From a virus: a stretch of 64,000 bases of DNA. Each line of letters starts with the position of its first letter. Position 1 is the first letter of the stretch. Position numbers and translations under genes: made by a program. Below the pieces are notes generated by a model. That model made no database searches, was not told the origin of the DNA, and was given only the letters and a program-made list of their open reading frames with translations. Positions 4,601-41,506 of this stretch are shown here, piece by piece. The stretch lies in the IMG/VR virus record IMGVR_UViG_3300032242_001694. The stretch is one strand, 5' to 3'.

Positions 4601-6630
4601 AGATTTGTAGAATCATTAGCAGTGAGCGTTGCAACATTAGATGACAAGCCAGCTGTAGTCTGGTAATTAGACAAGTTACCAGACAACTGGGCATTAGAGA
4701 CTACATTAGCAGCGGAAACACTTCCAACGAAAGAAGTGTTATTAGCAGTCAGTGTAGCTACATTGCTAGACAGTCCGGCTGTAGTTTGGTAGCTTGACAA
4801 GTTACCTGTTAGCTGAGCATTAGAAACAACATTAGTAGCTGAAACACTTCCAACAAAAGAAGTGTTGTTAGCAGTGAGCGTTGCAACATTGCTTGATAGT
4901 CCAGCCGTGGTTTGGTAGTTACTAAGGTTACCAGATAACTGGGCATTAGATACTACATTAGCAGCGGACACCGATCCAACAAAGCTTGTATTATTGGAAG
5001 TTAAAGTAGCTACATTAGAAGATAATCCAGCAGTAGTCTGGTAGTTACTAAGGTTGCTAGACAGCTGAGCATTTGACACAACATTAGCTGCAGAAACTGA
5101 ACCAACAAAAGAAGTGTTGTTAGCAGTGAGCGTTGCAACATTAGATAACAAGCCAGCTGTAGTCTGGTAATTAGACAAGTTACCAGACAGCTGTGCATTA
5201 GACACAACGTTAGACGCATCAATCGATCCAACAAATGAAGTATTGTTGGATGTTGCATTGAAAAAAGTGGTGTTTATAGTCGAGTAAACTGTAGTATTGC
5301 CAATATAGATCGTGTTGGCTTGGAAATTAGCGATATGGAATGTAGTGTTTGTCTGATCAATATACTGAGACGCATCAGGCTCTGGCAGATAGTTGTCGAA
5401 AACTTTCCAAGTTCCAGAAGCGTGATCTCTAAAGAACCCAGCATGGTGGTAAGTGCCATCATTATAGTTAGCTGCAAAACCAAGATCGGGATTTGAAAAT
5501 GTAGAATTAGAATTCAGATAAATCATGTTATCTGAGATTGATAGATTATTTGCCCCAATAACTTCTACGTTGCCGGTGATAATAAGGCTCTTCACTGAAA
5601 CGTTGCCGGTGAACGTGGCAGTTGTTGCTGTTACAGACGTTGCATTTACTGTTCCGCTGTAGTTTGGAAGATAAGATGCGATGTTTGCATTTAATCCAGC
5701 AGTAGTCTGGTAATTAGATAAGTTAGAAGAAAGCTGACTTGTGTTTACGTATGACTTGCCATCGACGTATGAAGTTGCATTGCTGTAGGCCGTGGCGGCA
5801 TTTGAAGTTATAGCGGTGTTAACGGTAACTATTCTACCGTCGGTGTAGGCAGCTGCATTGCTATAAGCGGTAGCAGCGTTAGAAGTTATAGCCGTGTTGA
5901 CTGTACCAATTCTAGTATCGGTGTATGCAGTAGCGTTGCTGTAAGCAGTAGCTGCATTAGATGTTATAGCGCCATTGACTGTGCTGATCTTAATATCAAC
6001 GTATGAAGTTGCATTGCTATACGCGGTTGCAGCATTACTGGTTATAGCAGTGTTGACTGTACCAATTCTAGTATCTGTATAAGCAGTAGCGTTGGAATAT
6101 GCCGTAGCAACATTTCCAGTCATCAATGTCGTATTGCTGTACAGAGAAAGATTACTAGAGAGCTGAGCATTAGAAACGACATTAGCAGCCGAAACGCTCC
6201 CGACAAACAGGGCGTTATTGGCTCTTCCGGTGTATGCCGTTGAGTTGATTGTAGCGTTGACGGTGCTATTGCCGTATGTTACCGTGTTGGTAAACGTATG
6301 GGTATTTGTCCAAGTGTATCTCGCAGCCGAGTTAACGCTGCCGCCACCGCCGCCACTTACCGCAAGCCAAGAACCATTTGCGTTTAAGAAATAACTGTCA
6401 GCTGCCTGTTGGTCTGCGGTTGGAGCTGCAAATGAATATGTTACCGTAGAATTTGCAAGAGACAGTGAAGTTGAATTAATCGTCGCATTGACGGTTGAGT
6501 TGCCAGTAAATATCGTATTGCTTAAGCCAATCGTAGGAGTATTAGATGTGGTTACAGTTTCTCCGGCATCAGTGTTTCCACTTGCCTGCAAAACCATATT
6601 ATTGTCGTCTAAGAAAAGAATACCCTGCAT
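1615..6630 (-). CDS. Long repetitive fibre/adhesin-like virion protein (1671 aa)
   Basis: 22 tandem 26-aa repeats in three blocks, five 42-aa repeats, a duplicated ~100-aa domain and a beta-rich C-terminus. Confidence 0.8.
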   Translation of the reverse strand: MQGILFLDDNNMVLQASGNTDAGETVTTSNTPTIGLSNTIFTGNSTVNATINSTSLSLANSTVTYSFAAPTADQQAADSYFLNANGSWLAVSGGGGGSVNSAARYTWTNTHTFTNTVTYGNSTVNATINSTAYTGRANNALFVGSVSAANVVSNAQLSSNLSLYSNTTLMTGNVATAYSNATAYTDTRIGTVNTAITSNAATAYSNATSYVDIKISTVNGAITSNAATAYSNATAYTDTRIGTVNTAITSNAATAYSNAAAYTDGRIVTVNTAITSNAATAYSNATSYVDGKSYVNTSQLSSNLSNYQTTAGLNANIASYLPNYSGTVNATSVTATTATFTGNVSVKSLIITGNVEVIGANNLSISDNMIYLNSNSTFSNPDLGFAANYNDGTYHHAGFFRDHASGTWKVFDNYLPEPDASQYIDQTNTTFHIANFQANTIYIGNTTVYSTINTTFFNATSNNTSFVGSIDASNVVSNAQLSGNLSNYQTTAGLLSNVATLTANNTSFVGSVSAANVVSNAQLSSNLSNYQTTAGLSSNVATLTSNNTSFVGSVSAANVVSNAQLSGNLSNYQTTAGLSSNVATLTANNTSFVGSVSATNVVSNAQLTGNLSSYQTTAGLSSNVATLTANNTSFVGSVSAANVVSNAQLSGNLSNYQTTAGLSSNVATLTANDSTNLGGTAASSYALKTYADDKASNAYSNATSYVDTKIGTVNTAITSNAATAYSNATSYTDTKIGTVNTAITSNAATAYSNAVSYVDTKIGTVNTAITSNAATAYSNAVSYVDTKIGTVNTAITSNAATAYSNATSYADIKAANAYSNATLFANTAAATAYSNATSYTDTKIGTVNTAITSNAATAYSNATSYVDTKIGTVNTAITSNAATAYSNATSYADTKAATSYSNATTYTDTRIGTVNTAITSNAATAYSNATTYVDTRIITVNTAITSNAATAYSNSVTYTDTKIGTVNTAITSNAATAYSNATTYVDTRIITVNTAITSNAATAYSNATSYTDTRIATANSAITSNAATAYSNAASYTDTRISTVNTAITGNAATAYSNATSYVDGRSFVNTSQLSSNLANYALLSNGINSFTGNVSANNANTINDLLVGRNLTVSGNVTIQGNLTVSGNLVTLNVQSLSVKDNMIYLNSNSDVANPDLGFAGNYNDGTYHHAGFFRDASDGTFKVFDNYLPEPDASPYIDKTNTTFHIANFQANTIYVGNTTVYSTINSTFFNATSNNTSFVGSVSAANVVSNAQLSSNLSLYSNTALMTANVATAYSNATSYVDTKIATVNTAITSNAATAYSNAVTYVDTRIATVNSAITSNAATAYSNATTYVDTRIITVNTAITSNAATAYSNATTYTDTRIGTVNTAITSNAATAYSNATTYTDTRIGTVNTAITSNAATAYSNATTYTDTRIGTVNTAITSNAATAYSNATSYVDGKSYVNTNQLSTNLANYALLTGALFSGSINAVSYTTGTTGTGTGGLIANVTTLFVGNNTVNAYLNTIGLNVNAVTIANTTGVYTGIVNAASHTVGTTFTANATLVNTAAINITGQTNTTTLYVTTSANVGTAFTANSSLVNAIAINIVNQTNTATLYVTTSANVGTNIIANSSQLTVTANLAVNGVIIANGSAGSAGQILFTSGTAANTYWGTTITAGQVYATAAGFNLI
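2310..6105 (-). repeat. Intragenic 78-bp (26-aa) tandem repeats in three blocks (~2310-2810, ~3440-4545, ~5765-6105)
   Basis: Consensus TAYSNATSY(T/V)DT(K/R)IGTVNTAITSNAA; 6, 12 and 4 full copies; synonymous positions differ between copies. Confidence 0.9.
4619..5248 (-). repeat. Intragenic 126-bp (42-aa) tandem repeat, 5 copies
   Basis: NNTSFVGSVSAANVVSNAQLSGNLSNYQTTAGLSSNVATLTA x5. Confidence 0.9.
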
Positions 6631-6648: not shown

Positions 6649-6725
6649 TGGCGACCCCTGCACGACTCGAACGTGCGGCCTACAGATTAGAAGTCTGTTG
6701 CTCTATCCAGCTGAGCTAAGGGGCC
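6649..6725 (-). tRNA. tRNA-Arg(UCU)
   Basis: GGCCCCTTAGCTCAGCTGGATAGAGCAACAGACTTCTAATCTGTAGGCCGCACGTTCGAGTCGTGCAGGGGTCGCCA; anticodon stem ACAGA/TCTGT with loop CT-TCT-AA; encoded CCA. Confidence 0.97.
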
Positions 6726-6785: not shown

Positions 6786-7101
6786 GTGGGGAGATTCTGT
6801 TTCTAAGCTCTCCCCGAGCTCATATTACTTATTTCTTTTCGGCAAATGCCTTGATGGCTTCAGCCAAAGCAAAGATCTCTTCTTCATCTGGATATGCGGG
6901 ATACACTCCAGCGAACCCATCTTCTTTTCTAATTACTGCTTCATTGAATTTAGCGTGGTAGCCATTCTGCAGTTGCTCGCGCGCAGCCATGTAATATTGA
7001 AAGCGCATTTCGTAAGGTGTAGCTGTCATAGTTAGTTCCTTTCTGTGTGTGTTGTGTGTAGTAGTGGGGAGATTCTGTTTCCAAGCTCTCCCCGAGCTCA
7101 T
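6786..7101. repeat. 38-bp direct repeat (6786-6823 and 7064-7101) flanking a small gene
   Basis: GTGGGGAGATTCTGTTTC(T/C)AAGCTCTCCCCGAGCTCAT, one mismatch; forms a GGGGAGA/TCTCCCC hairpin; second copy is the 3' end of the tmRNA gene. Confidence 0.92.
6829..7029 (-). CDS. Small conserved T4-like phage protein (PYE.R...YP..EEI..A family)
   Basis: Likely start MTATPYEMR at 7029, with RBS AAGGA after a CA-rich leader. Confidence 0.7.
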   Translation of the reverse strand: MTATPYEMRFQYYMAAREQLQNGYHAKFNEAVIRKEDGFAGVYPAYPDEEEIFALAEAIKAFAEKK

Positions 7102-7359
7102 TCTTAGGCAGCTAGTGCATAAGAGATAGGTGCATTATCGTTTGCATCTGTAACGTTTGCCATGATCTCAGTAGTACCTTTATCACACCTGTCGATCCTA
7201 TTTCGCCCCCATCAAAGATACACGCGTTTGGATTCGAACCATGTTCTAGTCTTCTCGATCTGCGCTTCCCACAGTGCTGACCCGTGTATCCGTGGTGGAG
7301 GCGGCGGGTACTGCCCCCGCGTCCAGTGTGCCTATGCCGTATACGTCAACGACCATTGC
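7064..7359 (-). ncRNA. ssrA: Circularly permuted (two-piece) tmRNA, alphaproteobacterial type; tag (A)NDNAPISYALAA at 7145-7104
   Basis: Acceptor segment ...GACGCGGGGGCAGTACCCGCCGCCTCCACCA ends at 7293 and precedes the canonical 5' end GGGGGCGAAATAGGATCGAC (starts 7210). Resume codon GCA AAC GAT AAT ... GCT GCC TAA. Confidence 0.93.
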
Positions 7360-7364
7360 AATTC

Positions 7365-7395
7365 TATTTATATCATGTCTTAAGCATTTTGTCAA
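7365..7395 (-). promoter_or_regulatory. Composite sigma70-type/T4-late promoter for tmRNA
   Basis: TTGACA-17 nt-TATAAATA; the -10 box is the T4 gp55 late consensus. Confidence 0.8.
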
Positions 7396-8505
7396 CTATA
7401 AAACTCGCAGCAGGATAGTGTTCTCGTTGAGTCGAGCCGTAAAGCCATTCTCTTTTAAAGTAGCAATCACCTTCTTTAGGTTCATCTTGCCCGCTTTTGC
7501 CACTTCGTCAACAATTTTTGCAGTCTGTCGCCCTGTTTTATAGGATTTTGACTGATTTTCATCAAATTTGTCGATAGAAGTGCCCTTAACTGACAATCCG
7601 CCGCGGTCTAGGGCCACAAAGTGTGTCAAAAACCCATATTTTGTGTTAAAAGTCCACAATTCTTGGGCTCCGATGACTTTTGAAGGCGGAATTGAGGCCA
7701 ACTTGTAGTCTTTAGCCTCTTTTTGGAACTTGAAGCCCTTGAGAAGCTTGTCAACCGACACGGTCTTGGGCTTACGGACTGCCCGAGTCTTCTTGGCTAC
7801 CCCTGCGTAGCGCTCACAGTCGTCGATAAGTCGGGCAATATACTCCATCCGAGCCTTGAGCTGACGAGCCGTGTAGTTCTTATAGCCCTCGAGCACGGCT
7901 TTGTCGCCATAGACACCCAGGGCTAGCTCTTCGAGGTATGGCTTGTAGTACGCAGCGACTTTTAACGCATGGGCCGGAGGCATCTCGATCTTTTGGAGGT
8001 AGGAGTACATGTTGACCTCCTCTTCTCCATCGATCATGGCCTCAACGTCGCCGATGATGTCGCTGACTTTGTCCTTGACGCGGTCTTGAATAGAAGGTTT
8101 CTCAGCCTTCTTGAGCTCTTCCTTGATCGGAGTGATGTGGACCAAGGCGTTGGTCAAGGCCCGCTCGACGTGGTCTTTCCAGACAGGGGCAGATGGGTGC
8201 TCGGGATCAAGCATCGACAGTCGCGCTGCCCAGCCGGCGTACATAGGCCACCACACGTCGGGAATGCGGTTGAGCTTCTTAGCCACTTCTTTGCGGCCGG
8301 TAGCCTCGAGATACGCCTTGACATAGTCCTTGGAGTCGTTGCGATCGCACATGGCGCTGTACCAAGTGAGAGCCTTCATCTCACTGGCGCGAATCTCCTT
8401 CTGCGTCGGCTCATCACCCATGTACTTGTAGTTGATGATGTATGTCTCAGAGCGAGACTTCTGTGCCTTCTTTTTTGTCTTTAATTGTAGGAGACTCTTT
8501 GCCAT
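7396..8505 (-). CDS. Conserved hypothetical T4-like phage protein (basic, 369 aa)
   Basis: Long ORF; C-terminal LWTFNTK...GLSVKGTSI...RLNENTILL is typical of a T4-like conserved family. Confidence 0.7.
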   Translation of the reverse strand: MAKSLLQLKTKKKAQKSRSETYIINYKYMGDEPTQKEIRASEMKALTWYSAMCDRNDSKDYVKAYLEATGRKEVAKKLNRIPDVWWPMYAGWAARLSMLDPEHPSAPVWKDHVERALTNALVHITPIKEELKKAEKPSIQDRVKDKVSDIIGDVEAMIDGEEEVNMYSYLQKIEMPPAHALKVAAYYKPYLEELALGVYGDKAVLEGYKNYTARQLKARMEYIARLIDDCERYAGVAKKTRAVRKPKTVSVDKLLKGFKFQKEAKDYKLASIPPSKVIGAQELWTFNTKYGFLTHFVALDRGGLSVKGTSIDKFDENQSKSYKTGRQTAKIVDEVAKAGKMNLKKVIATLKENGFTARLNENTILLRVL

Positions 8506-33626: not shown

Positions 33627-34430
33627 TTACTCCTTACATTGCTTCTTTTTATCGGCCGCGATTGTTTTAAGATCAGCCGCTGGTACTGGATTCTTAGCTG
33701 TCTTTGAATCCGGTACAGGGAATGTAATACCACTTGCTTTTTCAACATCTGCGACAGTTACTTGATATTTAGTAAAGTCTGAGTCAAGACCATCCCTGTG
33801 TGGGAATAAAAATGCATAAGTCTTCTTGGTGGTGTTATCAGTCACGATCTTGAATAGGGCATCAGGCACCACTACTTTGTCTTCTCCAATGGTTTTAGAA
33901 CTAGACGAGTAGACGTTGCCGGCATAGATCGTATGAGCATGCTTAGTCTGGTAGACCCAAGCTCTTGCAGCTGACTCAAGATTCTTCCAAGTACCGCGAT
34001 TGACTGATGGGAGCTGTGGACTCATGTTTGACATGTAGAACGACTCGTGTTCTACCTGATCATCCCACGACATATCAGCGTCGTTTGCTAGATGGCCTTG
34101 ATCGTATCCAGAATGGGCGTAATCATTGGGTGTTGACCTAGCGGCTGCAGGAAGTGATTGATCAGTAGCAAAAGCATTAGTACGAGCGACACAACCAATA
34201 GCGTGATCGGGAGTAAGAGTCCAAGCCACCCAGTTAGGAATCTTGGCCACAGGATCGTGCTCAAGTATGTAAGCACTGCGACAGATAACAGGATGGTTAG
34301 CAATGGTTGTTGGAGTTCCATATGGCACCTGAATTAAGCACGAAGCTACTGGCTTTGGTGGTTGCTGTTCTGCAGCAAATACTGTAGTTGTTAGTAATAG
34401 ACTATAGAGTAAAACCCTTAAACGACTCAT
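33627..34430 (-). CDS. Secreted DNA/RNA non-specific endonuclease (NucA/Serratia family)
   Basis: YDQGHL, MSNMSPQ...NRG.W..LE; signal peptide MSRLRVLLYSLLLTTTVFA. Confidence 0.87.
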   Translation of the reverse strand: MSRLRVLLYSLLLTTTVFAAEQQPPKPVASCLIQVPYGTPTTIANHPVICRSAYILEHDPVAKIPNWVAWTLTPDHAIGCVARTNAFATDQSLPAAARSTPNDYAHSGYDQGHLANDADMSWDDQVEHESFYMSNMSPQLPSVNRGTWKNLESAARAWVYQTKHAHTIYAGNVYSSSSKTIGEDKVVVPDALFKIVTDNTTKKTYAFLFPHRDGLDSDFTKYQVTVADVEKASGITFPVPDSKTAKNPVPAADLKTIAADKKKQCKE

Positions 34431-35496
34431 CGGATACATCCTTCTTTACACCACCAATAATGTAGCTGGTGATCTCGGTTTCTTGTGGAGCAACCTGAAC
34501 CTCCGCGCCGCTGATCCATTTCTGAGTCCATGGCAGAGGGTTTGATCCATTCTTATATATAGGAGTCAATCCAACTGCAGTCATACGCTTGTTGCAGATC
34601 CACTCTACGTACTCGTTGAGAAGTGTCTCGTTGAGACCAATCATCGATCCATCTTTAAACAAGTAGTGAGCCCAAGCCTTTTCCTGCTCAGCTGCATCCT
34701 TAAACATCTTGATGCACTCGTCTTTGGTCTCTTCGCGAATCTTAGCGAAGTCAGGATCGTCAGTTACGAGTACTTTAAGCAGCTGCTGAGTACCAGCGAG
34801 ATGCAGGTTCTCATCACGTGCGATCAACTTAATGATTTTAGCGTTGCCTTCCATCTTCTTCAACTCAGCGAATGCCCAAGAGCAAGCAAAGCTGACGTAG
34901 AAGCGAACGCCTTCAAGAATGTTGACCGACATGAGCGTAAGCCACAATAGCTTCTTATGTTCGTATTCATCATAGAGAATACGAACGTTTTGTTCTCTCT
35001 TGTTGTTAAGAGAAATCAACTCATCGTAGTATTTGCTAATATCACCAGCACAGTCTACGATTTCTTGCATATCCAAGATTCCATCAAAGACTTCCGATGG
35101 ATTTGCATATATGTTTCGTATGATATGCGTGTACGATCTACTATGAATGCTTTCTGAGAATGCCCAAGTGAGGATCCAGTTCTCGAGTTCAGGAAGCGAA
35201 CAAATAGGTCCAAATGCCACGGTTGGGGCTCGACCTTGCACAGAGTCAAGAAGGATTTGACGCTTAAGGTTTGATGTGAAGATGTGCTGCTCATGCTCCG
35301 TCAATCCCTTGAAGTCTTTAGCGTCGCGATAGATGTCGATCTCTTCTGGACGCCAGAAGAACCCGAGCTGCTGAGTTGTCAGCTTCTCAAGGAACGGGTA
35401 CTTCTGCTTGTCGTAGCGAGCAATGGTTGGCGGATCATCAAAGAATGCATGCACCTTCGTTGGATCTTTACGGTTAGTTGAATCAAATACACTCAC
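34402..35496 (-). CDS. nrdB: Ribonucleotide reductase class Ia beta subunit
   Basis: FFWRPEE, ESIHSRSY, LEGVRFYVSF, DENLH, VAPQE.E. Confidence 0.97.
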   Translation of the reverse strand: MSVFDSTNRKDPTKVHAFFDDPPTIARYDKQKYPFLEKLTTQQLGFFWRPEEIDIYRDAKDFKGLTEHEQHIFTSNLKRQILLDSVQGRAPTVAFGPICSLPELENWILTWAFSESIHSRSYTHIIRNIYANPSEVFDGILDMQEIVDCAGDISKYYDELISLNNKREQNVRILYDEYEHKKLLWLTLMSVNILEGVRFYVSFACSWAFAELKKMEGNAKIIKLIARDENLHLAGTQQLLKVLVTDDPDFAKIREETKDECIKMFKDAAEQEKAWAHYLFKDGSMIGLNETLLNEYVEWICNKRMTAVGLTPIYKNGSNPLPWTQKWISGAEVQVAPQETEITSYIIGGVKKDVSDESFKGFTL

Positions 35497-35959
35497 AGCA
35501 CACTTCTTTCTTTTAGTTCATCTACTTCTGTATAGAGTTCCATTGGTACAATCCATTTGTACCAGTCTTTAATCGGCTTATCTTTATCCCTGACCATCAC
35601 TGCTAGCAGTGGCTGAAACGTTTCCATGTTTACTGTGCGACCCCAAGTGATAATATCTTCGGGAGCTACACCTCTAAAAGCGTTTTCAGCTTCTTCTTTG
35701 TTTTGACAATAATGAAAGATTGCGTCGTCAACATACGACGTCGACATTGGTCGCTCAATAATTTTCATGCAGCTTTTCTCCACAGGTGTTTCTTTTCATA
35801 ATCAATATAGCCTTCAGGTACGTTATAAAGCTTTTTAGTCTCACACTCATATAGAGCTGGAGTAAGGTCCGGCTTTACGTGTACAATAATGTAGTCATCC
35901 AAACGGTTAATCCTATCAAACAATTGCTCGTGTGTTAGCATCGGGTTTAGATCTTGCAT
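35493..35959 (-). CDS. Two small hypothetical genes between nrdA and nrdB (35493-35768, 35765-35959)
   Basis: ORF track; overlapping stop/start. Confidence 0.5.
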
Positions 35960-38238
35960 GCTTCGCAGTCCTCGTCGTCTGTTTCACCAATGGCGAGTGG
36001 AGTACCAACTTCCAACTCACCGGCTCCGTCGTTCGTGTTAAAGTAGTAAAGTTGCTTACCTCCATACTTATAGAACATTAACAGGTGTTGAAGCATAGTC
36101 GACAGGGGGATCTGTTCTTCTGGATAGAACTTAGGATTGTAGCTGGTGTTTACCGAGATACCCTGATCGATAAACTTCTGCAGGACTGCGCAGATCTTGA
36201 GATAGCCCTCGGGCGACTTTTGGTCCCAAAGTAGATCGTACTTCTTCTTAAGCTTTCTGACTTCTGGAACAACCTGCTTGAGAACGCCGTCTTTACTCTG
36301 CTTAACAGAGACCAGAGATCTCGGAGGCTCAATGCCATTGGTTGAGTTACTGATCTGAGCAGAGGTTTCCGCTGGCATGAGAGCCATAAGCGTGGAATTA
36401 CGGGTGCCATAAGTCTGAGCCTTTGTTCTAAGTGACTCCCAATCCATCTTATAGACTGGAGCTACGAGCTCGTCTACTTCTTTCTTATAGGTGTCGATCG
36501 GGAACTGACCGTGGTAGTACTTGGTCTCATTGGCTTTCGAGATCATGCCCTTCTCTTCTGCCAAGTCGATCGATGCCTTGATAAGGTAGTACGACCATGC
36601 CTCGGCATACTCATGTAGTTTTACTAGTCCATCATGATCAATTGACTGATAGCTAATATCATTGCGAGCCAACCAATAAGCGAGGTTAATAATACCGACA
36701 CCAAGAGGTCTTCTGGCCATAGTGGAGTTTCTGGCAGCAAGAACTGGATAATCTTGATAATCAAGTAACTCGTCCAAAGCACGAACAATAAGAGTACAAG
36801 GCTTTGCAAAGTCATTAGGATCACGGATCTTACCCCAGTTAATAGCAGCCAGAGTGCAGAGCGAGATCTCTCCGTCTGGATCATGCAGGTCGTTGAGTGG
36901 CTTGGTTGGTAGGTCAATTTCAGAGCATAGGTTAGACTGGCGAATAGGAGCCAACTCTTTAACAAAGGCTCCATGGTCATTCGCATGGTCAACGTTCATC
37001 AGATAGATTCGACCAGTATTCTTTCTCTCTTCCATGAAAGCAGAGAAGACGTCTATCGCGGGAAGCGACTTCTTGCGGATTTTTGTAGAGCGCTCAGCTT
37101 TTTCGTAAAGCTCACGGAACTTATCTGTGTTGGTGAAAAACGACTCATACAAGTCAGGAACATCTGACGGCGAGAAAAGTGTAATCTGTCCGCCAGAAAG
37201 CAACCTTTCGTACATAACTTTATTGAATTGGACTCCATAGTCAAGGTGTCTGACACGATTATCCTCCGTTCCTTTATTATTCTTTAATACCAAAAGCTCT
37301 TCTACTTCGAGGTGCCAAATAGGATAGTAAAGAGTCGCCGCGCCTCCGCGTACTCCTCCTTGAGAGCAGCTTTTAACGGCAGACTGGAAATGCTTATAGA
37401 ACGGAACAACGCCGGTATGAGACGCATCACCGCTCCTGATAGGAGAACCAATAGCGCGAATGGACCCAGCACCAATCCCAATACCAGCTTTTTGGCTAAC
37501 GTACTTAACGATTGCGGAGCTAGTTGCATTGATTGAGTCAAGCGAGTCTGCAGTCTCAATAAGAACACATGAACTGAACTGCTTTTGAGGAGTACGTAGA
37601 CCTGCCATGATAGGAGTTGGAAGCGAAATTTCGAAATTAGATACTGCATCGTAAAAGTCTTTTACCCACTTTAGTCTGTCTTCTTTATAGTTTCTAAACA
37701 ACACCATCGCGATAAGCATAAAAGCCATCTGGGGTGTCTCATAGTACTTATTAGCTACTCTATTCTTTACAAGATACTTGCCCCGAAACTGTTCCATCCC
37801 AGCATAAGTAAGGTTAAAATCGCGTTTATGGTCCAGAGAACTATTAAGATATTCAAGAGATTGATCATCGTACCAGACAAGAATGTTCGGGTCGTAGTAT
37901 CCTGCTGATACGACTTTTCTAATATGATTACCAAGAGAATCAGGATTAAAATTTCCATATACTTCTTTCCTCAGATTATAATTGATAAGATTACCAGCAA
38001 CATACTGATAATTAGGAGTATCTTCGCCGATAAGCTCAGCGGCAGCCTTGATAAGGGTCTCTTGGATCTCGGTAGTCTTAATACCGTTGTAGAACTGTAT
38101 GTGAGAGTTTAGCTCAATCTGAGACTCAGAAACACCGTTGATATTCTCACATGCCCATGCGACGACTTTATGAAACTTATTGAGGTTTAGTAACTCTTTT
38201 GAACCATCCCTCTTTACTACCTGAATCGTCGCCATCAT
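35947..38238 (-). CDS. nrdA: Ribonucleotide reductase class Ia alpha subunit
   Basis: ATP-cone VVKRDG, SSCVLI, SNLCSEI, C-terminal CEAC. Confidence 0.97.
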   Translation of the reverse strand: MMATIQVVKRDGSKELLNLNKFHKVVAWACENINGVSESQIELNSHIQFYNGIKTTEIQETLIKAAAELIGEDTPNYQYVAGNLINYNLRKEVYGNFNPDSLGNHIRKVVSAGYYDPNILVWYDDQSLEYLNSSLDHKRDFNLTYAGMEQFRGKYLVKNRVANKYYETPQMAFMLIAMVLFRNYKEDRLKWVKDFYDAVSNFEISLPTPIMAGLRTPQKQFSSCVLIETADSLDSINATSSAIVKYVSQKAGIGIGAGSIRAIGSPIRSGDASHTGVVPFYKHFQSAVKSCSQGGVRGGAATLYYPIWHLEVEELLVLKNNKGTEDNRVRHLDYGVQFNKVMYERLLSGGQITLFSPSDVPDLYESFFTNTDKFRELYEKAERSTKIRKKSLPAIDVFSAFMEERKNTGRIYLMNVDHANDHGAFVKELAPIRQSNLCSEIDLPTKPLNDLHDPDGEISLCTLAAINWGKIRDPNDFAKPCTLIVRALDELLDYQDYPVLAARNSTMARRPLGVGIINLAYWLARNDISYQSIDHDGLVKLHEYAEAWSYYLIKASIDLAEEKGMISKANETKYYHGQFPIDTYKKEVDELVAPVYKMDWESLRTKAQTYGTRNSTLMALMPAETSAQISNSTNGIEPPRSLVSVKQSKDGVLKQVVPEVRKLKKKYDLLWDQKSPEGYLKICAVLQKFIDQGISVNTSYNPKFYPEEQIPLSTMLQHLLMFYKYGGKQLYYFNTNDGAGELEVGTPLAIGETDDEDCEACKI

Positions 38239-39250
38239 TCTTTTCTACTCCTACCATATTTTCTTTAAATGTTTTCCAAACGGCTACCCATGAATACCTA
38301 TCTATAGTATACAAAAAACAAGCATTTCTGTCAACCGTTAAAGAATTCTTAATAGCAACATTTAGATCTTCGTGGATGTAACCGTTAACTCCGTTTACAA
38401 TAATATCAATTGGTCCAGTTACAGGATACGCAGCGACCGGAGTTCCCATCGTTTGAGCTTCTATGTTTACCACTCCAAACGTATCATTCTTGCTTGGAAA
38501 TACAAAACAGTCTGCCGCAGCATATTCCGCCGCAAGCTCTTTACCTACGAGAGCTCCAGTGAATCTTACTTTTGGATACTTTAACTTTAATTCTTTTAAG
38601 TACGGGCCATCACCGACCACAGTAAGATTATATAGGTAAGATGACAGCTGGCAAAAGGCGTCTAGATTCTTTTCTTTGCTAATTCTATTAACTGTCAACA
38701 AGTTTCTTGGCGAGATGAATATGTTTTTATTAGAAGTTAATCTCGGCGGACCAAAGATACTGGTGTCTACTCCTCGAGACCAGCTAATGTGTGTCTTGCC
38801 GATTTTGTGGTCATTCAAATAATCTATCATAGATTGAGAAGTGCAGAAGACGATCTTGTTCTTGTGGAATCTTCTCAGCCAAGAGTTTGTCCAGCTTACC
38901 GGAACGTGTAAGATGCTCTGTAGAAACTCTCCCCACTTGGTATGAAAAGCGGTGGTAAAGTTTAGATTTCTCTTGCTGCAGTAGAACAGAGCTGCGATTC
39001 CCAACACGCCTTCTGTGGCTATGTGGATGAAGTCGGGCTTGAAGTTGTCTATGATCTTGTTAAAGCCGAGTGGTATCGAGATCTTTACGTCTGGATATAT
39101 CCAAGAGCTAAAATTGCGAAAGAGAGAAGGCTCCACGATAAGTACCTCGTACCCATCTCTCTCAGCTTCTTTCTTTATGTTCTTAAGCGTGGTTACTACG
39201 CCGTTGATTGATGGCTCGTAACAGTCTGTAACTATGAGGATCTTTTGCAT
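38177..39250 (-). CDS. GT4 glycosyltransferase, Agt-like diacylglycerol glycosyltransferase
   Basis: KILIVTD...P.INGVVTTL, HIATEG.LG, TT.FHTK, WSRGVD, FVFPS..DTFG.V..EA, PVAAYPV.GP. Confidence 0.8.
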   Translation of the reverse strand: MQKILIVTDCYEPSINGVVTTLKNIKKEAERDGYEVLIVEPSLFRNFSSWIYPDVKISIPLGFNKIIDNFKPDFIHIATEGVLGIAALFYCSKRNLNFTTAFHTKWGEFLQSILHVPVSWTNSWLRRFHKNKIVFCTSQSMIDYLNDHKIGKTHISWSRGVDTSIFGPPRLTSNKNIFISPRNLLTVNRISKEKNLDAFCQLSSYLYNLTVVGDGPYLKELKLKYPKVRFTGALVGKELAAEYAAADCFVFPSKNDTFGVVNIEAQTMGTPVAAYPVTGPIDIIVNGVNGYIHEDLNVAIKNSLTVDRNACFLYTIDRYSWVAVWKTFKENMVGVEKNDGDDSGSKEGWFKRVTKPQ

Positions 39251-39405
39251 TCGGACACAACTTTAAATCTATCAAACTTCAGCTGGTATTCCATAGAGCT
39301 CTTAGCTTTAAGACACTGTTGCTCCGTATCAAATTTTATAGTCACCCATCCGGGTCTGTCTTCTGGGTTATTAACGTGAACCGCTATCAGTATCAGTATC
39401 CACAT
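39232..39405 (-). CDS. Small hypothetical protein
   Basis: MWILILIAV... after GGAGG; overlaps both neighbours. Confidence 0.55.
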   Translation of the reverse strand: MWILILIAVHVNNPEDRPGWVTIKFDTEQQCLKAKSSMEYQLKFDRFKVVSECKRSS

Positions 39406-40147
39406 CGCTCTGCCTCCAATGAATGATTTCAAACTTTCCATCCATAGTCTCAACCAAAGCTGTGCAAGACTCTACCCAGTCACCACAGTTCATGTACTCT
39501 ACATCTTCTATAATAGAAATATTAGCCGAATGAATATGCCCGCAGATAACACCATCAACGTGTTTAATACGAGCGTAATGTGCGAGAGAATGTTCATAGT
39601 TGCCTATAAAGTTTACTGCTTCTTTTACTTTCTGCTTAGCCCACTTAGACAATGACCAATAAGGAAGTCTGAGATAAGATCTAGCCCAGTGCAGTCCCGT
39701 GTTAATATTTAGGAGCAGTGAGTACGCCCAGTCGCCGACATGTGCAAGCCACTTCATATTCATGGTAACTAAGTCAAACTTGTCTCCATGAATGACTACG
39801 TACTTCTTGCCATTTAATGCTTCATAAACGATCTCATCGTGAAGCTCTACACTTCCAAAGTTATGCTCTAGAAATTGACGCATGAACTCGTCGTGATTAC
39901 CCGGAAGATAGATGATCCTCGTGCCTTTGCGAGACAGTCTGAGAATCTTCTGTATTACAGTCGAGTGTTCCTGTGGCCAGTACCAGCCTTTCTTGAGTCT
40001 CCAACCATCAAATATATCTCCAACGAGAAACAAGTTATCACACTCAATATCTTTTAAGAAAGATAGTAAAACTTCAGCTTTGCTTCCTCTAGTACCCAAA
40101 TGTATATCAGAAATAAATATAGACCTGTAATGATTGTTTTCTGTCAT
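39371..40147 (-). CDS. plcP: PlcP-type metallophosphoesterase (phospholipase C; often annotated as LpxH-like)
   Basis: SDIHLG, GDI.DGW, W.WPQ.H, PGNHD (His rather than the Arg of LpxH GNRD), HGD.FD, YWSLSKW.K, CGHIH, N.GDWVESCTA. Confidence 0.8.
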   Translation of the reverse strand: MTENNHYRSIFISDIHLGTRGSKAEVLLSFLKDIECDNLFLVGDIFDGWRLKKGWYWPQEHSTVIQKILRLSRKGTRIIYLPGNHDEFMRQFLEHNFGSVELHDEIVYEALNGKKYVVIHGDKFDLVTMNMKWLAHVGDWAYSLLLNINTGLHWARSYLRLPYWSLSKWAKQKVKEAVNFIGNYEHSLAHYARIKHVDGVICGHIHSANISIIEDVEYMNCGDWVESCTALVETMDGKFEIIHWRQSDVDTDTDSGSR

Positions 40148-40156
40148 GAATTTCTC

Positions 40157-40164
40157 TATAAATA
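40157..40164 (+). promoter_or_regulatory. T4-type late promoter
   Basis: TATAAATA upstream of the only + strand genes. Confidence 0.7.
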
Positions 40165-40272
40165 TTAACGCTCGGACCAATTACTTATAGTCTTGAGAGT
40201 GTCAGACATGATTGATCTCGCTTTATTTTATGTTTTTATTTTACTTTAAAAACAATAGAGAAAGAGATTCTT

Positions 40273-40692
40273 ATGCTACCTACAGATCCAAAGAAAGCGG
40301 CCCAGCTTGGAAAAGCTTGGGGCGAAGTTCTAGCTGAGTCTATCTTTGGCGTTGCCGATGTTTTAAAGAATGGCAAGAACATGAAAGCGGCTGCTAATGC
40401 TAAGCAGCTACAAGAAAATGCAGCCACTGCCGCAAAGAACGCTGTCATCCGCGCTAAGAACGAAGCTAAGCTTAAAGAGCAGCAGGAAGCTGCTTACATG
40501 AAGATGAGTCACTCAGAGCGCGAAGCTTACAAGAAGATCCTGCAAGAGCAGCGCGTTGCAACTACAGTTAAGAAAGCTCAAGACGACGAGATGATTGGCG
40601 TTGGTCACCTATTGCTAATAGTGTTAGGAATAGTAGCCATCCTTGGAATCTCAGTATACGGAGCTTTTGCCTATGGGATTATCCATAGATGA
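40273..40692 (+). CDS. Membrane-anchored coiled-coil protein
   Basis: Ala/Lys/Glu helix plus a C-terminal TM segment; fills an otherwise empty intergenic gap. Confidence 0.75.
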   Translation: MLPTDPKKAAQLGKAWGEVLAESIFGVADVLKNGKNMKAAANAKQLQENAATAAKNAVIRAKNEAKLKEQQEAAYMKMSHSEREAYKKILQEQRVATTVKKAQDDEMIGVGHLLLIVLGIVAILGISVYGAFAYGIIHR

Positions 40693-40826
40693 TAATGACT
40701 AACTTTGGAAATCCATATGACATCTGGGCTTTTGGCTATAGGCTGCCAATGGAAGCAGCAGTATTCTTAGGAACGCTGCTTGCTCTACTGTGCGTAGCCG
40801 CTATATGTCAAGCAAATAAGCTTTAA
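40689..40826 (+). CDS. 45-aa membrane peptide
   Basis: ATGA overlap; MIMTNFGNPYDIWAFGYRLPMEAAVFLGTLLALLCVAAICQANKL. Confidence 0.5.
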   Translation: MIMTNFGNPYDIWAFGYRLPMEAAVFLGTLLALLCVAAICQANKL

Positions 40827-41506
40827 GTACCAATATCTAAGCTGTCTTTAAGCGATGGGAACTTGGCAGTGATCTGGTACCAAGCGTCGGTGGCAACTTC
40901 ACGGTGCTCTTTCTGAGTGCCGTTGCCCATCCTCAGCTGACAATAATGTATCCAAGACCGAAGAGAGCCAGCCATATACATACGACTGTTAGTGAGGCCT
41001 TCAGGCAGTACAGCACGAGCTTGCTCCTTTGCAATTCCATTCTTAATAGCCCAGTCATAGCTACGCTGCACGTTTTCAATGATAAACTTTTGTTCCTGCT
41101 CCCATCGCTGGGAGATCATTTTGTCGTGTTCCGTAAGTTCAATAGAGTTCTGACGATTCTTCGTATCCTGTAATCGTGCCTCTCGATGGCTAAAGCCAAG
41201 ATCTCCTGTAGGGTCTGCATAGCGTTGACTAAACTCCTGAAAAGTAAATGACCTGTGTCGAAGGATCTGACGAGCGATGTCCCTCGTGGTATTTATTTCC
41301 ATGACTACGTGAACCATCTCAAACGGCGACCAGTGCTTGTGCTTGGCCAGATACTTGAGCAGCTTGTTAGCCGTAGTAATGTTGTGTTGGTTAGAGGGAT
41401 TAGACACTCGAGCCACGTATGCGATAAACTCATCCACACTCATCGACTCAAACTGGTTACCACCCTCGCAGGGCTGTGTGAGGGCTACGATCTTTGCACT
41501 GTTCAT
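40823..41506 (-). CDS. thyX: Flavin-dependent thymidylate synthase
   Basis: H.SPFE, QILRHRSF.FQEFSQRY, QKEH. Confidence 0.96.
   Translation of the reverse strand: MNSAKIVALTQPCEGGNQFESMSVDEFIAYVARVSNPSNQHNITTANKLLKYLAKHKHWSPFEMVHVVMEINTTRDIARQILRHRSFTFQEFSQRYADPTGDLGFSHREARLQDTKNRQNSIELTEHDKMISQRWEQEQKFIIENVQRSYDWAIKNGIAKEQARAVLPEGLTNSRMYMAGSLRSWIHYCQLRMGNGTQKEHREVATDAWYQITAKFPSLKDSLDIGT

What the first reader, a model, noticed from the sequence alone, without database searches (positions are those of the whole stretch)
38177..40147. Phage-borne plcP-agt-like membrane lipid remodelling module coupled to ribonucleotide reductase
Seen: a metallophosphoesterase with GNHD and the W.WPQ.H, YWSLSKW.K and GDWVESCT blocks, then a small gene, then a GT4 glycosyltransferase whose 3' end overlaps the nrdA start by ~60 bp. 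Established: in alphaproteobacteria (S. meliloti PlcP, A. tumefaciens Agt, SAR11, Roseobacter) this pair cleaves phospholipids to DAG and rebuilds P-free glycolipids under phosphate starvation. Inference: the phage mines host membrane phosphorus for dNTP synthesis while preserving the bilayer, independently of host PhoB control. It could also change the envelope seen by competing phages. I do not know of this being characterised in a phage.
Basis: partly seen in the sequence, partly recalled or inferred. Interest (0 to 1): 0.88.

Follow-up and report, generated by a model that had tools for sequence, protein, structure and literature searches.

The report
Phage-borne PlcP-Agt lipid-remodelling gene cassette
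A T4-like lake phage carries its own copies of the two bacterial enzymes that swap phosphate-containing membrane lipids for sugar lipids, so it probably frees host membrane phosphorus during infection; I found no paper describing this in a virus, and databases label the first enzyme as the lipid A enzyme LpxH.

Summary
On the minus strand lie four overlapping genes: a 258-aa metallophosphoesterase (39371-40147), a 57-aa ORF (39232-39405), a 357-aa GT4 glycosyltransferase (38177-39250) and nrdA (35947-38238). The GT overlaps nrdA by 62 nt. The window is a T4-like phage.

The phosphoesterase is a PlcP-family protein, not LpxH. It is 51-59% identical to alphaproteobacterial proteins that mostly sit just upstream of an Agt-type GT. 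It scores far below both LpxH cut-offs.

The GT belongs to the Agt/GTcp diacylglycerol glycosyltransferase clade and keeps the residues shown to be essential in GTcp.

The cassette recurs in independent assemblies. More than 550 IMG/VR contigs carry the phosphoesterase, including complete phage genomes. About 60% of the 80 best have the GT next to it, and several have pstS beside it.

Function is inferred, not shown: phospholipid to diacylglycerol to glycolipid, releasing phosphorus. The link to ribonucleotide reductase is positional and specific to this lineage. I found no Pho box.

I found no published description. This scan has already flagged the same module on other phage DNA (87 notes, at least 72 genomes).

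The parts
39371..40147 (-). PlcP-family metallophosphoesterase (258 aa; predicted intracellular phospholipase C). No signal peptide: the catalytic D-x-H motif begins at residue 14.
   Evidence: Pfam Metallophos. LpxH equivalog models score 52.8 and 48.9 bits against cut-offs of 134 and 190. 51-59% identity to alphaproteobacterial proteins, 58 of 80 followed directly by an Agt-type GT. Tree. The AF2 model's top 25 PDB matches are all LpxH, aligned over about 255 columns, including a helical insertion at residues 121-194.
39232..39405 (-). 57-aa conserved phage ORF of unknown function, overlapping the end of the MPE gene by 35 nt and the start of the GT gene by 19 nt.
   Evidence: 79% identical in L002 and 53% in L104 and L158, at the same position. 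A profile search finds 61 clusters of about 57-aa proteins. Two invariant Cys. AF2 pLDDT 95.6, beta-beta-alpha-beta. No fold or family match.
38177..39250 (-). Agt/GTcp-clade GT4 glycosyltransferase (357 aa; predicted UDP-sugar:diacylglycerol glycosyltransferase).
   Evidence: Pfam GT4 and GT1 domains. Motifs NRISKEKN and FPSKNDTFG, plus H103, R159, D256, E264 and W321, are conserved, matching the residues shown essential in GTcp (PMC8231724). One strong hit per alphaproteobacterial genome, including A. tumefaciens (39% identity, 1.7e-66; next hit 3e-5). Tree.
35947..38238 (-). nrdA (class Ia ribonucleotide reductase alpha subunit). Context gene; its start is overlapped by the last 62 nt of the GT gene.
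   Evidence: NF006578 1146.7 bits, full length 1-763. The overlap is 44 nt in L002.
40182..40189 (-). TATAAGTA, a T4 late-promoter-like element (one mismatch to TATAAATA) 35 nt upstream of the MPE start. Candidate promoter of the cassette.
   Evidence: ACTATAAGTA is shared by the window and L002 within otherwise divergent upstream sequence. ATAAATA is the commonest 7-mer upstream of the viral MPE genes (14 of 70). Inference only.
38306..38334 (-). Sigma70-like promoter candidate (TTGACA-17-TATACT, 11 of 12 matches) inside the GT 3' end, about 68 nt upstream of the nrdA ATG.
   Evidence: Both hexamers are conserved in L002 while the spacer differs. The total number of promoter-like sites in the region is not above chance (13 against 15.4 expected), and the hexamers also encode conserved residues, so this is only a candidate.

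Best explanation
A lineage of T4-like freshwater phages carries a viral version of the bacterial PlcP-Agt lipid-renovation pathway. The cytoplasmic PlcP-type metallophosphoesterase would cleave the phospho-head group from inner-membrane phospholipids, leaving diacylglycerol. The Agt-type GT4 would then glycosylate the diacylglycerol from a UDP-sugar to give phosphorus-free glycolipid (glucosyl- or glucuronosyl-DAG). The host membrane stays intact while its lipid phosphorus is released as phospho-alcohols, which host phosphatases can convert to phosphate for phage nucleotide and DNA synthesis. Shown here: gene presence, family membership, intact catalytic and substrate-binding residues, conservation of the cassette across phages, and recurrent neighbourhood with pstS and with nucleotide-metabolism genes. 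Inferred: the substrates, the products, the timing of expression and the benefit to the phage. The 57-aa ORF between the two genes is a real conserved phage gene of unknown role.
For: (1) PlcP membership. The protein is 51-59% identical over its full length to proteins of 80 alphaproteobacterial genomes. It has a single homologue in each of three genomes tested, including A. tumefaciens at 54%. All metal-binding motifs are invariant. (2) Not LpxH. NCBIfam gives 52.8 and 48.9 bits against cut-offs of 134 and 190, PDB LpxH chains match only at E about 1e-6, and E. coli LpxH sits on a branch of length 10 in the tree. (3) Operon logic is as in bacteria. In 58 of 80 bacterial loci and 48 of 80 viral loci, a homologue of the window's GT lies directly downstream of the MPE. 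This is the published plcP-agt arrangement (PMC4796936; PMC9239053). (4) GT membership. It carries the Agt/GTcp signature motifs, with Asp in place of the usual GT4 Glu, and the residues whose mutation abolished GTcp activity are invariant. It has one strong hit in the A. tumefaciens genome. The window's other GT4 is unrelated. (5) The carriers are true phages. The pair occurs in complete genomes with direct terminal repeats: 149 kb T4-like, 338 kb and 480 kb. At least 551 IMG/VR contigs carry the MPE, and 72 of 73 viral MPEs form one clade with SH-aLRT 97. (6) Phosphate context. pstS lies next to the MPE in six other viral loci, including MPE-GT-pstS in L150, and in the cultured Pelagibacter phage Mosig. 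(7) Lipid-enzyme architecture. The AF2 model aligns over its whole length to LpxH, including the helical insertion.
Against: No activity, product or expression data exist for any phage copy. The reference enzymes that were characterised (S. meliloti SMc00171, MED193, HTCC7211, PA3219) could not be fetched, so membership rests on their orthologues in Agrobacterium, Rhizobium, Labrenzia/Roseibium and Methylocystis. The bacterial sample in both trees is only the 80 best-matching genomes, all Alphaproteobacteria, so the apparent separation of viral and bacterial clades may partly reflect sampling. In this lineage the GT has substitutions at otherwise conserved positions: DCYEPS for DAWxPQ, EGVLG for EGPLG, NR for GR, and ND for TD. 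It could therefore prefer another donor or acceptor. About a third of viral loci carry the MPE without the GT, so bilayer 'rebuilding' is not obligatory. No Pho box was found here. PlcP releases phospho-alcohols, not phosphate, so a further phosphatase is needed, and none is identified in the cassette.
Confidence: 0.65

Rival explanations
1. The pair remodels the envelope mainly to change the cell surface or membrane properties rather than to supply phosphorus. Possible purposes are superinfection exclusion, altered receptor display, or stabilising the membrane until lysis.
For: Published work links lipid renovation to phage adsorption and to changes in the membrane proteome in hosts (PMC9938194 and PMC9804370). 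The upstream element resembles a late promoter more than a Pho box.
Against: PlcP and Agt act at the cytoplasmic face of the inner membrane. The recurrent neighbour in other phages is pstS, a phosphate-uptake gene. Many phages carry the MPE alone, which removes phospholipid without adding a new surface lipid.
Confidence: 0.15
2. The enzymes have drifted to other substrates. For example, the MPE may hydrolyse a lipid A precursor or another pyrophosphate- or phosphodiester-linked lipid, and the GT may glycosylate a different acceptor, so the cassette is not a phospholipid-to-glycolipid pathway.
For: Databases call the MPE LpxH. Its fold and lid are LpxH-like. The window-lineage GT has substitutions at conserved positions. 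L086 has an MPE 79% identical to the window's but a GT only 42% identical, which shows that the GT partner is exchangeable.
Against: The LpxH equivalog models are missed by a wide margin. The nearest bacterial relatives are the PlcP orthologues of Alphaproteobacteria, mostly in plcP-agt operons. All residues shown essential for GTcp catalysis and for DAG and UDP-sugar binding are kept.
Confidence: 0.12
3. The segment is host DNA wrongly joined to a phage contig, or a recent non-functional passenger.
For: None found.
Against: The same order occurs in independent assemblies from several samples and in IMG/VR contigs. The genes overlap their phage neighbours. GC content (0.415) matches the surrounding phage DNA. 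The viral copies form their own clade with long internal branches.
Confidence: 0.02

Closest known systems
Bacterial PlcP-Agt lipid-renovation pathway (S. meliloti SMc00171; Phaeobacter sp. MED193; SAR11 HTCC7211 PlcP and GTcp; A. tumefaciens Agt; P. aeruginosa; M. trichosporium OB3b)
   Same: Same two protein families in the same order (plcP directly upstream of agt), with the same catalytic motifs. The MPE is 51-59% identical and the GT 32-42% identical to alphaproteobacterial operon members. For comparison, OB3b PlcP and Agt are 51% and 43% identical to the HTCC7211 enzymes (PMC9239053).
   Different: It is carried by a lytic T4-like phage. There is no recognisable Pho box. An extra 57-aa ORF lies between the genes. 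The GT has a C-terminal extension that overlaps nrdA. The viral copies form clades separate from the sampled bacterial ones.
LpxH (UDP-2,3-diacylglucosamine diphosphatase), the name given in databases to the phage proteins
   Same: The same metallophosphoesterase fold with a helical lid. LpxH chains are the best structural matches.
   Different: About 20-23% identity. It scores below both NCBIfam LpxH cut-offs, lies on a very long branch in the tree, and has no lipid A genes nearby.
Phage phosphate-stress auxiliary genes (pstS, phoA, phoH of cyanomyophages and pelagimyophages)
   Same: Host-derived genes on T4-like aquatic phages that relieve phosphorus limitation. In several related phages the PlcP gene lies beside pstS.
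   Different: Those genes import or scavenge external phosphate. This module would mobilise an internal pool, the membrane phospholipid.
'Putative UDP-2,3-diacylglucosamine hydrolase' of Pelagibacter phage Mosig (Mosig_00120) and of Synechococcus phage S-SRM01
   Same: Members of the same viral PlcP clade (48.6% and 35.6% identity). In Mosig the gene is divergent from pstS.
   Different: Neither cultured phage has the Agt-type GT next to it. Neither genome paper discusses the gene.

Membership tests
PlcP (LpxH-like metallophosphoesterase phospholipase C of lipid renovation) | Intact calcineurin-type metal-binding motifs (DxH, GD, GNHD/E, H, GHxH) | tested here: met
   D14, H16, D44, N84-H85, H120, H204 and H206 are present and invariant in a 14-sequence alignment. 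Pfam Metallophos 9.6e-12.
PlcP (LpxH-like metallophosphoesterase phospholipase C of lipid renovation) | Orthology to characterised PlcPs rather than to LpxH (the published screens use BLASTP E < 1e-40 to a characterised PlcP) | tested here: met
   51-59% identity with tblastn E of 1e-91 to 1e-97 against alphaproteobacterial proteins, including Agrobacterium, Rhizobium, Labrenzia/Roseibium and Methylocystis. These E-values are relative to the candidate stretches only. There is one homologue per genome. LpxH models score below cut-off and E. coli LpxH is far away in the tree. Caveat: the characterised sequences themselves were not available, so their orthologues were used.
PlcP (LpxH-like metallophosphoesterase phospholipase C of lipid renovation) | Gene neighbourhood with a DAG-using lipid synthase (agt or btaBA) | tested here: met
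   An Agt-type GT lies 121 nt downstream with only the 57-aa ORF between. The same adjacency is seen in 58 of 80 bacterial and 48 of 80 viral loci.
PlcP (LpxH-like metallophosphoesterase phospholipase C of lipid renovation) | Phosphate-starvation (PhoB/Pho box) control | tested here: inconclusive
   The E. coli/rhizobial-type Pho box pattern gives 3 matches in the window against 8.4 expected by chance, and none is convincing upstream. No TTAAC-type repeats like those upstream of the Mosig gene were seen. The host's Pho box consensus is unknown.
PlcP (LpxH-like metallophosphoesterase phospholipase C of lipid renovation) | Phospholipase C activity on PE, PG or PC yielding diacylglycerol | not testable with these tools
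   Needs an enzyme assay or lipidomics.
Agt/GTcp clade of GT4 (UDP-sugar:diacylglycerol glycosyltransferase) | GT-B GT4 architecture | tested here: met
   Glyco_transf_4 (residues 15-164) plus Glycos_transf_1 (181-294).
Agt/GTcp clade of GT4 (UDP-sugar:diacylglycerol glycosyltransferase) | Signature motifs GRVAxEKN and FPSxTDTFG, a His-Asp catalytic dyad (Asp replacing the usual GT4 Glu), a Gly-rich motif, and the DAG-site Arg and Trp (PMC8231724) | tested here: met
   NRISKEKN and FPSKNDTFG are present. H103, R159, R189, E193, K194, D256, T257, G259, E264 and W321 are invariant in 18 homologues. G17 and G84 are invariant and G81 is nearly invariant. Deviations: G to N at the first motif position and T to N before the Asp.
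Agt/GTcp clade of GT4 (UDP-sugar:diacylglycerol glycosyltransferase) | Specific relationship to characterised Agt rather than to other GT4 enzymes | tested here: met
   In the A. tumefaciens genome there is one hit at 39% identity and 1.7e-66 covering residues 1-342; the next best is 3e-5. The tree groups it with Agt homologues, and the window's other GT4 sits on a branch of 7.5. All named NCBIfam GT4 equivalogs score far below their cut-offs.
Agt/GTcp clade of GT4 (UDP-sugar:diacylglycerol glycosyltransferase) | Synthesis of glucosyl-, galactosyl- or glucuronosyl-DAG | not testable with these tools
   Needs expression and LC-MS.
LpxH (lipid A pathway) | Reaches the curated equivalog score | tested here: not met
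   NF003743 52.8 bits against 134; TIGR01854 48.9 bits against 190.35.

The most novel reading that the evidence does not exclude
Phage PlcP(-Agt) is a major, so far unrecognised class of viral phosphorus auxiliary genes. It lets lytic phages of several lineages (T4-like and jumbo) draw on the host's membrane phospholipid as a phosphorus reserve for DNA synthesis. In this lineage it runs under the phage's own transcription programme (a late-type promoter, no Pho box), wired into the thyX-nrdAB nucleotide cluster, with a dedicated 57-aa partner protein of a new fold family. If so, part of the 'lpxH/LPS' signal in viromes and part of the 'bacterial' plcP signal in metagenomes and metatranscriptomes would be viral.
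Probability: 0.3. Interest if true: 0.78.

Novelty: new variant of a known kind. Interest (0 to 1): 0.66.

Why it matters
Phosphorus often limits phage production in lakes and oceans. The known viral answers (pstS, phoA, phoH) act on external phosphate. A phage-encoded route that converts membrane phospholipid into phosphorus-free glycolipid would be a second, internal source. It also bears on annotation: these genes are filed as lpxH or 'LPS biosynthesis' in phage genomes and virome AMG tables (for example PMC9611531; Mosig and S-SRM01). Surveys that use plcP as a marker of bacterial phosphorus stress may be counting viral copies. The enzymes are small, soluble and easy to express, so the hypothesis can be tested directly.

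Tried and rejected
- LpxH reading: rejected on the NCBIfam cut-offs, identity and tree.
- Generic 'cell-wall' GT4, PimA, MshA or Mgs reading: all named GT4 equivalogs score far below cut-off, and PDB sequence matches are only local, at E about 1e-6.
- Misassembled host DNA: rejected.
- Pho box search with CTGTCAT-N4-CTGTCAT and up to 3 mismatches: 3 matches against 8.4 expected, so nothing usable.
- Small ORF as a signal peptide or TM protein: the hydrophobic N-terminus is modelled as a beta-strand of a compact beta-beta-alpha-beta domain.
- Fold searches for the small ORF gave no informative match: Foldseek PDB best E = 1, VIA-align best Z = 5.3, and the Atlas returned only 'hypothetical' clusters.
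- Small ORF as an obligate part of the cassette: not upheld. It also occurs next to NT5C or RimK genes without the MPE, although it follows an MPE in six lineages.
- Complex prediction with MPE + GT + small ORF (partner = small ORF): 'no answer', score 0.00, controls not run. This is no evidence either way.
- Word-indexed homologue search for the small ORF found only 3 close relatives; the profile search was needed.
- Literature: searches for plcP with viral/AMG/phage terms, for the Mosig and S-SRM01 genome papers and for the pelagimyophage survey found no description of a phage-encoded PlcP.
- No whole genome is held for this window, so other phosphate genes of this phage outside the 64 kb could not be checked. 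There is no pstS in the window.

Full report
**What is there.** All genes in this part of the window lie on the minus strand. In transcription order they are:
- thyX (40823-41506);
- a short divergent plus-strand gene (40273-40692);
- a metallophosphoesterase (MPE) ORF at 39371-40180, whose real start is most likely the ATG at 40147 because all homologues begin there;
- a small ORF (39232-39405 from its ATG);
- a GT4 glycosyltransferase (38177-39250);
- nrdA (35947-38238);
- two small ORFs;
- nrdB (34402-35496);
- a signal-peptide-bearing Endonuclease_NS nuclease (33627-34439).

The four cassette genes overlap one another by 35, 19 and 62 nt.

**It is phage DNA.**
- The window encodes a gp43-type polymerase about 49% identical to cyanomyophage gp43. 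It also encodes a DnaB-like helicase, a T4-type primase, thyX, nrdAB and a SegE-like homing endonuclease.
- GC content across the cassette (0.415) matches its surroundings.
- The same order (MPE, 56-aa ORF, GT4, nrdA, nrdB, nuclease, SegE) occurs in independent assemblies from several JGI and ENA samples, among them a 159-kb contig.
- It also occurs in IMG/VR contigs. Misassembly is therefore excluded.

**The phosphoesterase is PlcP-type, not LpxH.**
- It misses both NCBIfam LpxH equivalog models by a wide margin: 52.8 against 134 bits, and 48.9 against 190.
- It matches solved LpxH chains only at E about 1e-6.
- By contrast, it is 51-59% identical over its full length to proteins of 80 alphaproteobacterial genomes. 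These include Agrobacterium, Rhizobium, Bradyrhizobium, Labrenzia/Roseibium and Methylocystis.
- In three of those genomes it has a single homologue.
- In 58 of the 80 bacterial loci, a homologue of the window's GT follows immediately. This is the published plcP-agt operon (PMC4796936; PMC9239053).
- All metal-binding residues are invariant.
- An AlphaFold model (pLDDT 79) has LpxH structures as its 25 best matches, aligned across about 255 columns, with a helical insertion at residues 121-194. This is the architecture expected of a lipid-acting LpxH paralogue.
- There is no signal peptide, so the enzyme should act at the cytoplasmic face of the inner membrane.

**The glycosyltransferase is Agt/GTcp-type.** The biochemical study of the SAR11 enzyme GTcp (PMC8231724) defines the clade by three things. 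The first is the motifs GRVAxEKN and FPSxTDTFG. The second is a His104-Asp256 dyad, with Asp replacing the usual GT4 Glu. The third is a list of residues whose mutation abolishes activity.
- The window protein has NRISKEKN and FPSKNDTFG.
- In an 18-sequence alignment, H103, R159, R189, E193, K194, D256, T257, G259, E264 and W321 are invariant.
- In the A. tumefaciens genome it finds one protein at 39% identity (1.7e-66, residues 1-342), and the next hit is 3e-5. A. tumefaciens Agt is a characterised member of this clade, whose members are under 25% identical to other GT4 enzymes.
- The window's second GT4, in a heptose operon, is unrelated.
- Caveat: this phage lineage has substitutions at otherwise conserved positions: DCYEPS for DAWxPQ, EGVLG for EGPLG, N for G, and N for T. 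Donor or acceptor preference could therefore differ.

**How widespread it is.**
- Of the best 80, 48 have the Agt-type GT directly downstream, 28 have no GT within the flank, and 3 end too soon to tell.
- Carriers include complete genomes with direct terminal repeats: a 149-kb T4-like phage (gp43 51% identical) and jumbo phages of 338 and 480 kb.
- Several arrangements occur. They include thyX-MPE-nrdA without a GT (L102, L105), nrdA-nrdB-MPE (L098), MPE-GT, and MPE-small ORF-GT (window, L002/L087, L104, L158).
- In a maximum-likelihood tree, 72 of 73 viral MPEs form one clade (SH-aLRT 97) apart from 43 alphaproteobacterial PlcPs. The clade includes the cultured Pelagibacter phage Mosig and Synechococcus phage S-SRM01. 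E. coli LpxH lies on a branch of length 10.
- The GT tree separates viral and bacterial sequences in the same way.
- Both trees sample only the best-matching bacteria, all Alphaproteobacteria. Monophyly of the viral genes is therefore suggested, not proven.
- L086 has an MPE 79% identical to the window's but a GT only 42% identical and no small ORF. The partners have been exchanged during evolution.

**Evidence for a phosphorus role.** The MPE sits next to pstS in six other viral loci:
- directly downstream in L162, L163 and L154;
- directly upstream in L160;
- as MPE-GT-pstS in L150;
- MPE-GT, then pstS 1.5 kb on, in L109.

In Mosig the MPE gene is divergent from pstS, with TTAAC-type repeats in the shared intergenic region.

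In the window lineage the neighbours are thyX, nrdAB and a secreted non-specific nuclease. That is a nucleotide-supply theme, but it is only positional evidence.

**Regulation.**
- I found no Pho box: 3 matches against 8.4 expected by chance.
- Thirty-five nt upstream of the MPE start lies TATAAGTA, one mismatch from the T4 late promoter. It sits within ACTATAAGTA, which is shared with L002 in otherwise divergent sequence.
- ATAAATA is the commonest 7-mer upstream of the viral MPE genes, in 14 of 70.
- No terminator is predicted between the MPE and nrdA.
- A near-consensus sigma70-like site (TTGACA-17-TATACT, 38334-38306) lies inside the GT 3' end, ahead of nrdA. Both hexamers are conserved in L002.

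nrdA may therefore have its own promoter, and 'coupling' of the cassette to RNR remains unproven. All of this is inference from consensus matches.

**The small ORF.**
- It is a real gene. It is 53-79% identical at the same position in three divergent phage lineages.
- A profile search finds 61 clusters of about 57-aa proteins with two invariant cysteines.
- AlphaFold gives pLDDT 95.6 for a beta-beta-alpha-beta domain.
- It has no Pfam, PHROG or fold match.
- It follows an MPE in six lineages. It also occurs beside NT5C or RimK genes without one. Its role is unknown.

**Most likely mechanism.** During infection the phage PlcP converts inner-membrane phospholipids to diacylglycerol plus phospho-head groups. 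The Agt-type GT converts the diacylglycerol to glycosyl-DAG. The membrane is thus kept while lipid phosphorus becomes available, after dephosphorylation by host enzymes, for phage nucleotide synthesis.

I put family membership at about 0.9 and this physiological reading at about 0.65. The rivals are envelope modification for exclusion or stability (0.15), drift to other substrates (0.12) and artefact (0.02).

**Novelty.**
- Full-text searches of PMC and bioRxiv found no paper describing a phage-encoded PlcP or PlcP-Agt.
- The genome papers for Mosig and S-SRM01 and the pelagimyophage survey do not mention it.
- A viral metatranscriptome lists the gene as lpxH under LPS biosynthesis.
- The enzymes belong to known families. 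A viral, apparently widespread version is a new variant of a known kind.

This scan has noted the same module repeatedly on other phage DNA: 87 notes in at least 72 genomes, several followed up with the same conclusion. I used those notes as leads only.

**In passing.** The window also carries an alphaproteobacterial-type two-piece tmRNA (RF01849, 123.6 bits) and a tRNA-Arg. These point to an alphaproteobacterial host.

Noticed in passing
window 7063-7399 (-) and 6649-6725 (-): The phage carries an alphaproteobacterial-type permuted tmRNA (Rfam alpha_tmRNA RF01849, 123.6 bits; tag ANDNAPISYALAA by ARAGORN) next to a tRNA-Arg(tct). This hints at an alphaproteobacterial host and is an unusual cargo for a T4-like phage.
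   Followed up: partly
window 39232-39405 (-); L002 8716-8886; L104 6725-6898; L158 2027-2194: A family of about 57-aa phage proteins (61 clusters at 50% identity) with two invariant Cys and a confidently predicted beta-beta-alpha-beta fold, but no known relative. It often follows the PlcP gene but also occurs beside NT5C or RimK genes.
   Followed up: yes
L150 5905-8822; L163 6001-7798; L162; L154; L160 3892-5581; L109: In other viral contigs the PlcP-like gene lies directly next to pstS. L150 has PlcP-Agt-pstS in a row, with a PEPCK gene 1.7 kb upstream.
   Followed up: partly
L001 (Pelagibacter phage Mosig) about 5850-5997: The intergenic region between the divergent pstS and the PlcP-like gene contains repeated TTTAACA/CTTAACA units at about 11-bp spacing, resembling a Pho box. 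The gene is annotated as a UDP-2,3-diacylglucosamine hydrolase.
   Followed up: no
L086 5992-7717: This contig's MPE is 79% identical to the window's, but its GT is only 42% identical and the small ORF is missing. The GT partner has therefore been replaced by recombination.
   Followed up: no
window 33627-34439 (-): An Endonuclease_NS non-specific nuclease with a signal-peptide-like N-terminus (MYPMSRLRVLLYSLLLTTTVFAAE) overlaps the end of nrdB. It is conserved at the same place in L002-L005.
   Followed up: partly
L175 774-3940 (and a 66.6-kb ENA contig): A member of the small-ORF family is followed by a RimK-like ATP-grasp gene and a CHASE2-guanylate/adenylate cyclase gene in a phage-like contig that also carries a Tad3-family gene.
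   Followed up: no
window 40273-40692 (+): This is the only sizeable plus-strand gene in the region. It is divergent from the cassette, and a TATAAATA lies on the plus strand at about 40155-40165. Its counterpart in L002 is a block of four minus-oriented genes that includes a DUF4337 protein.
   Followed up: no
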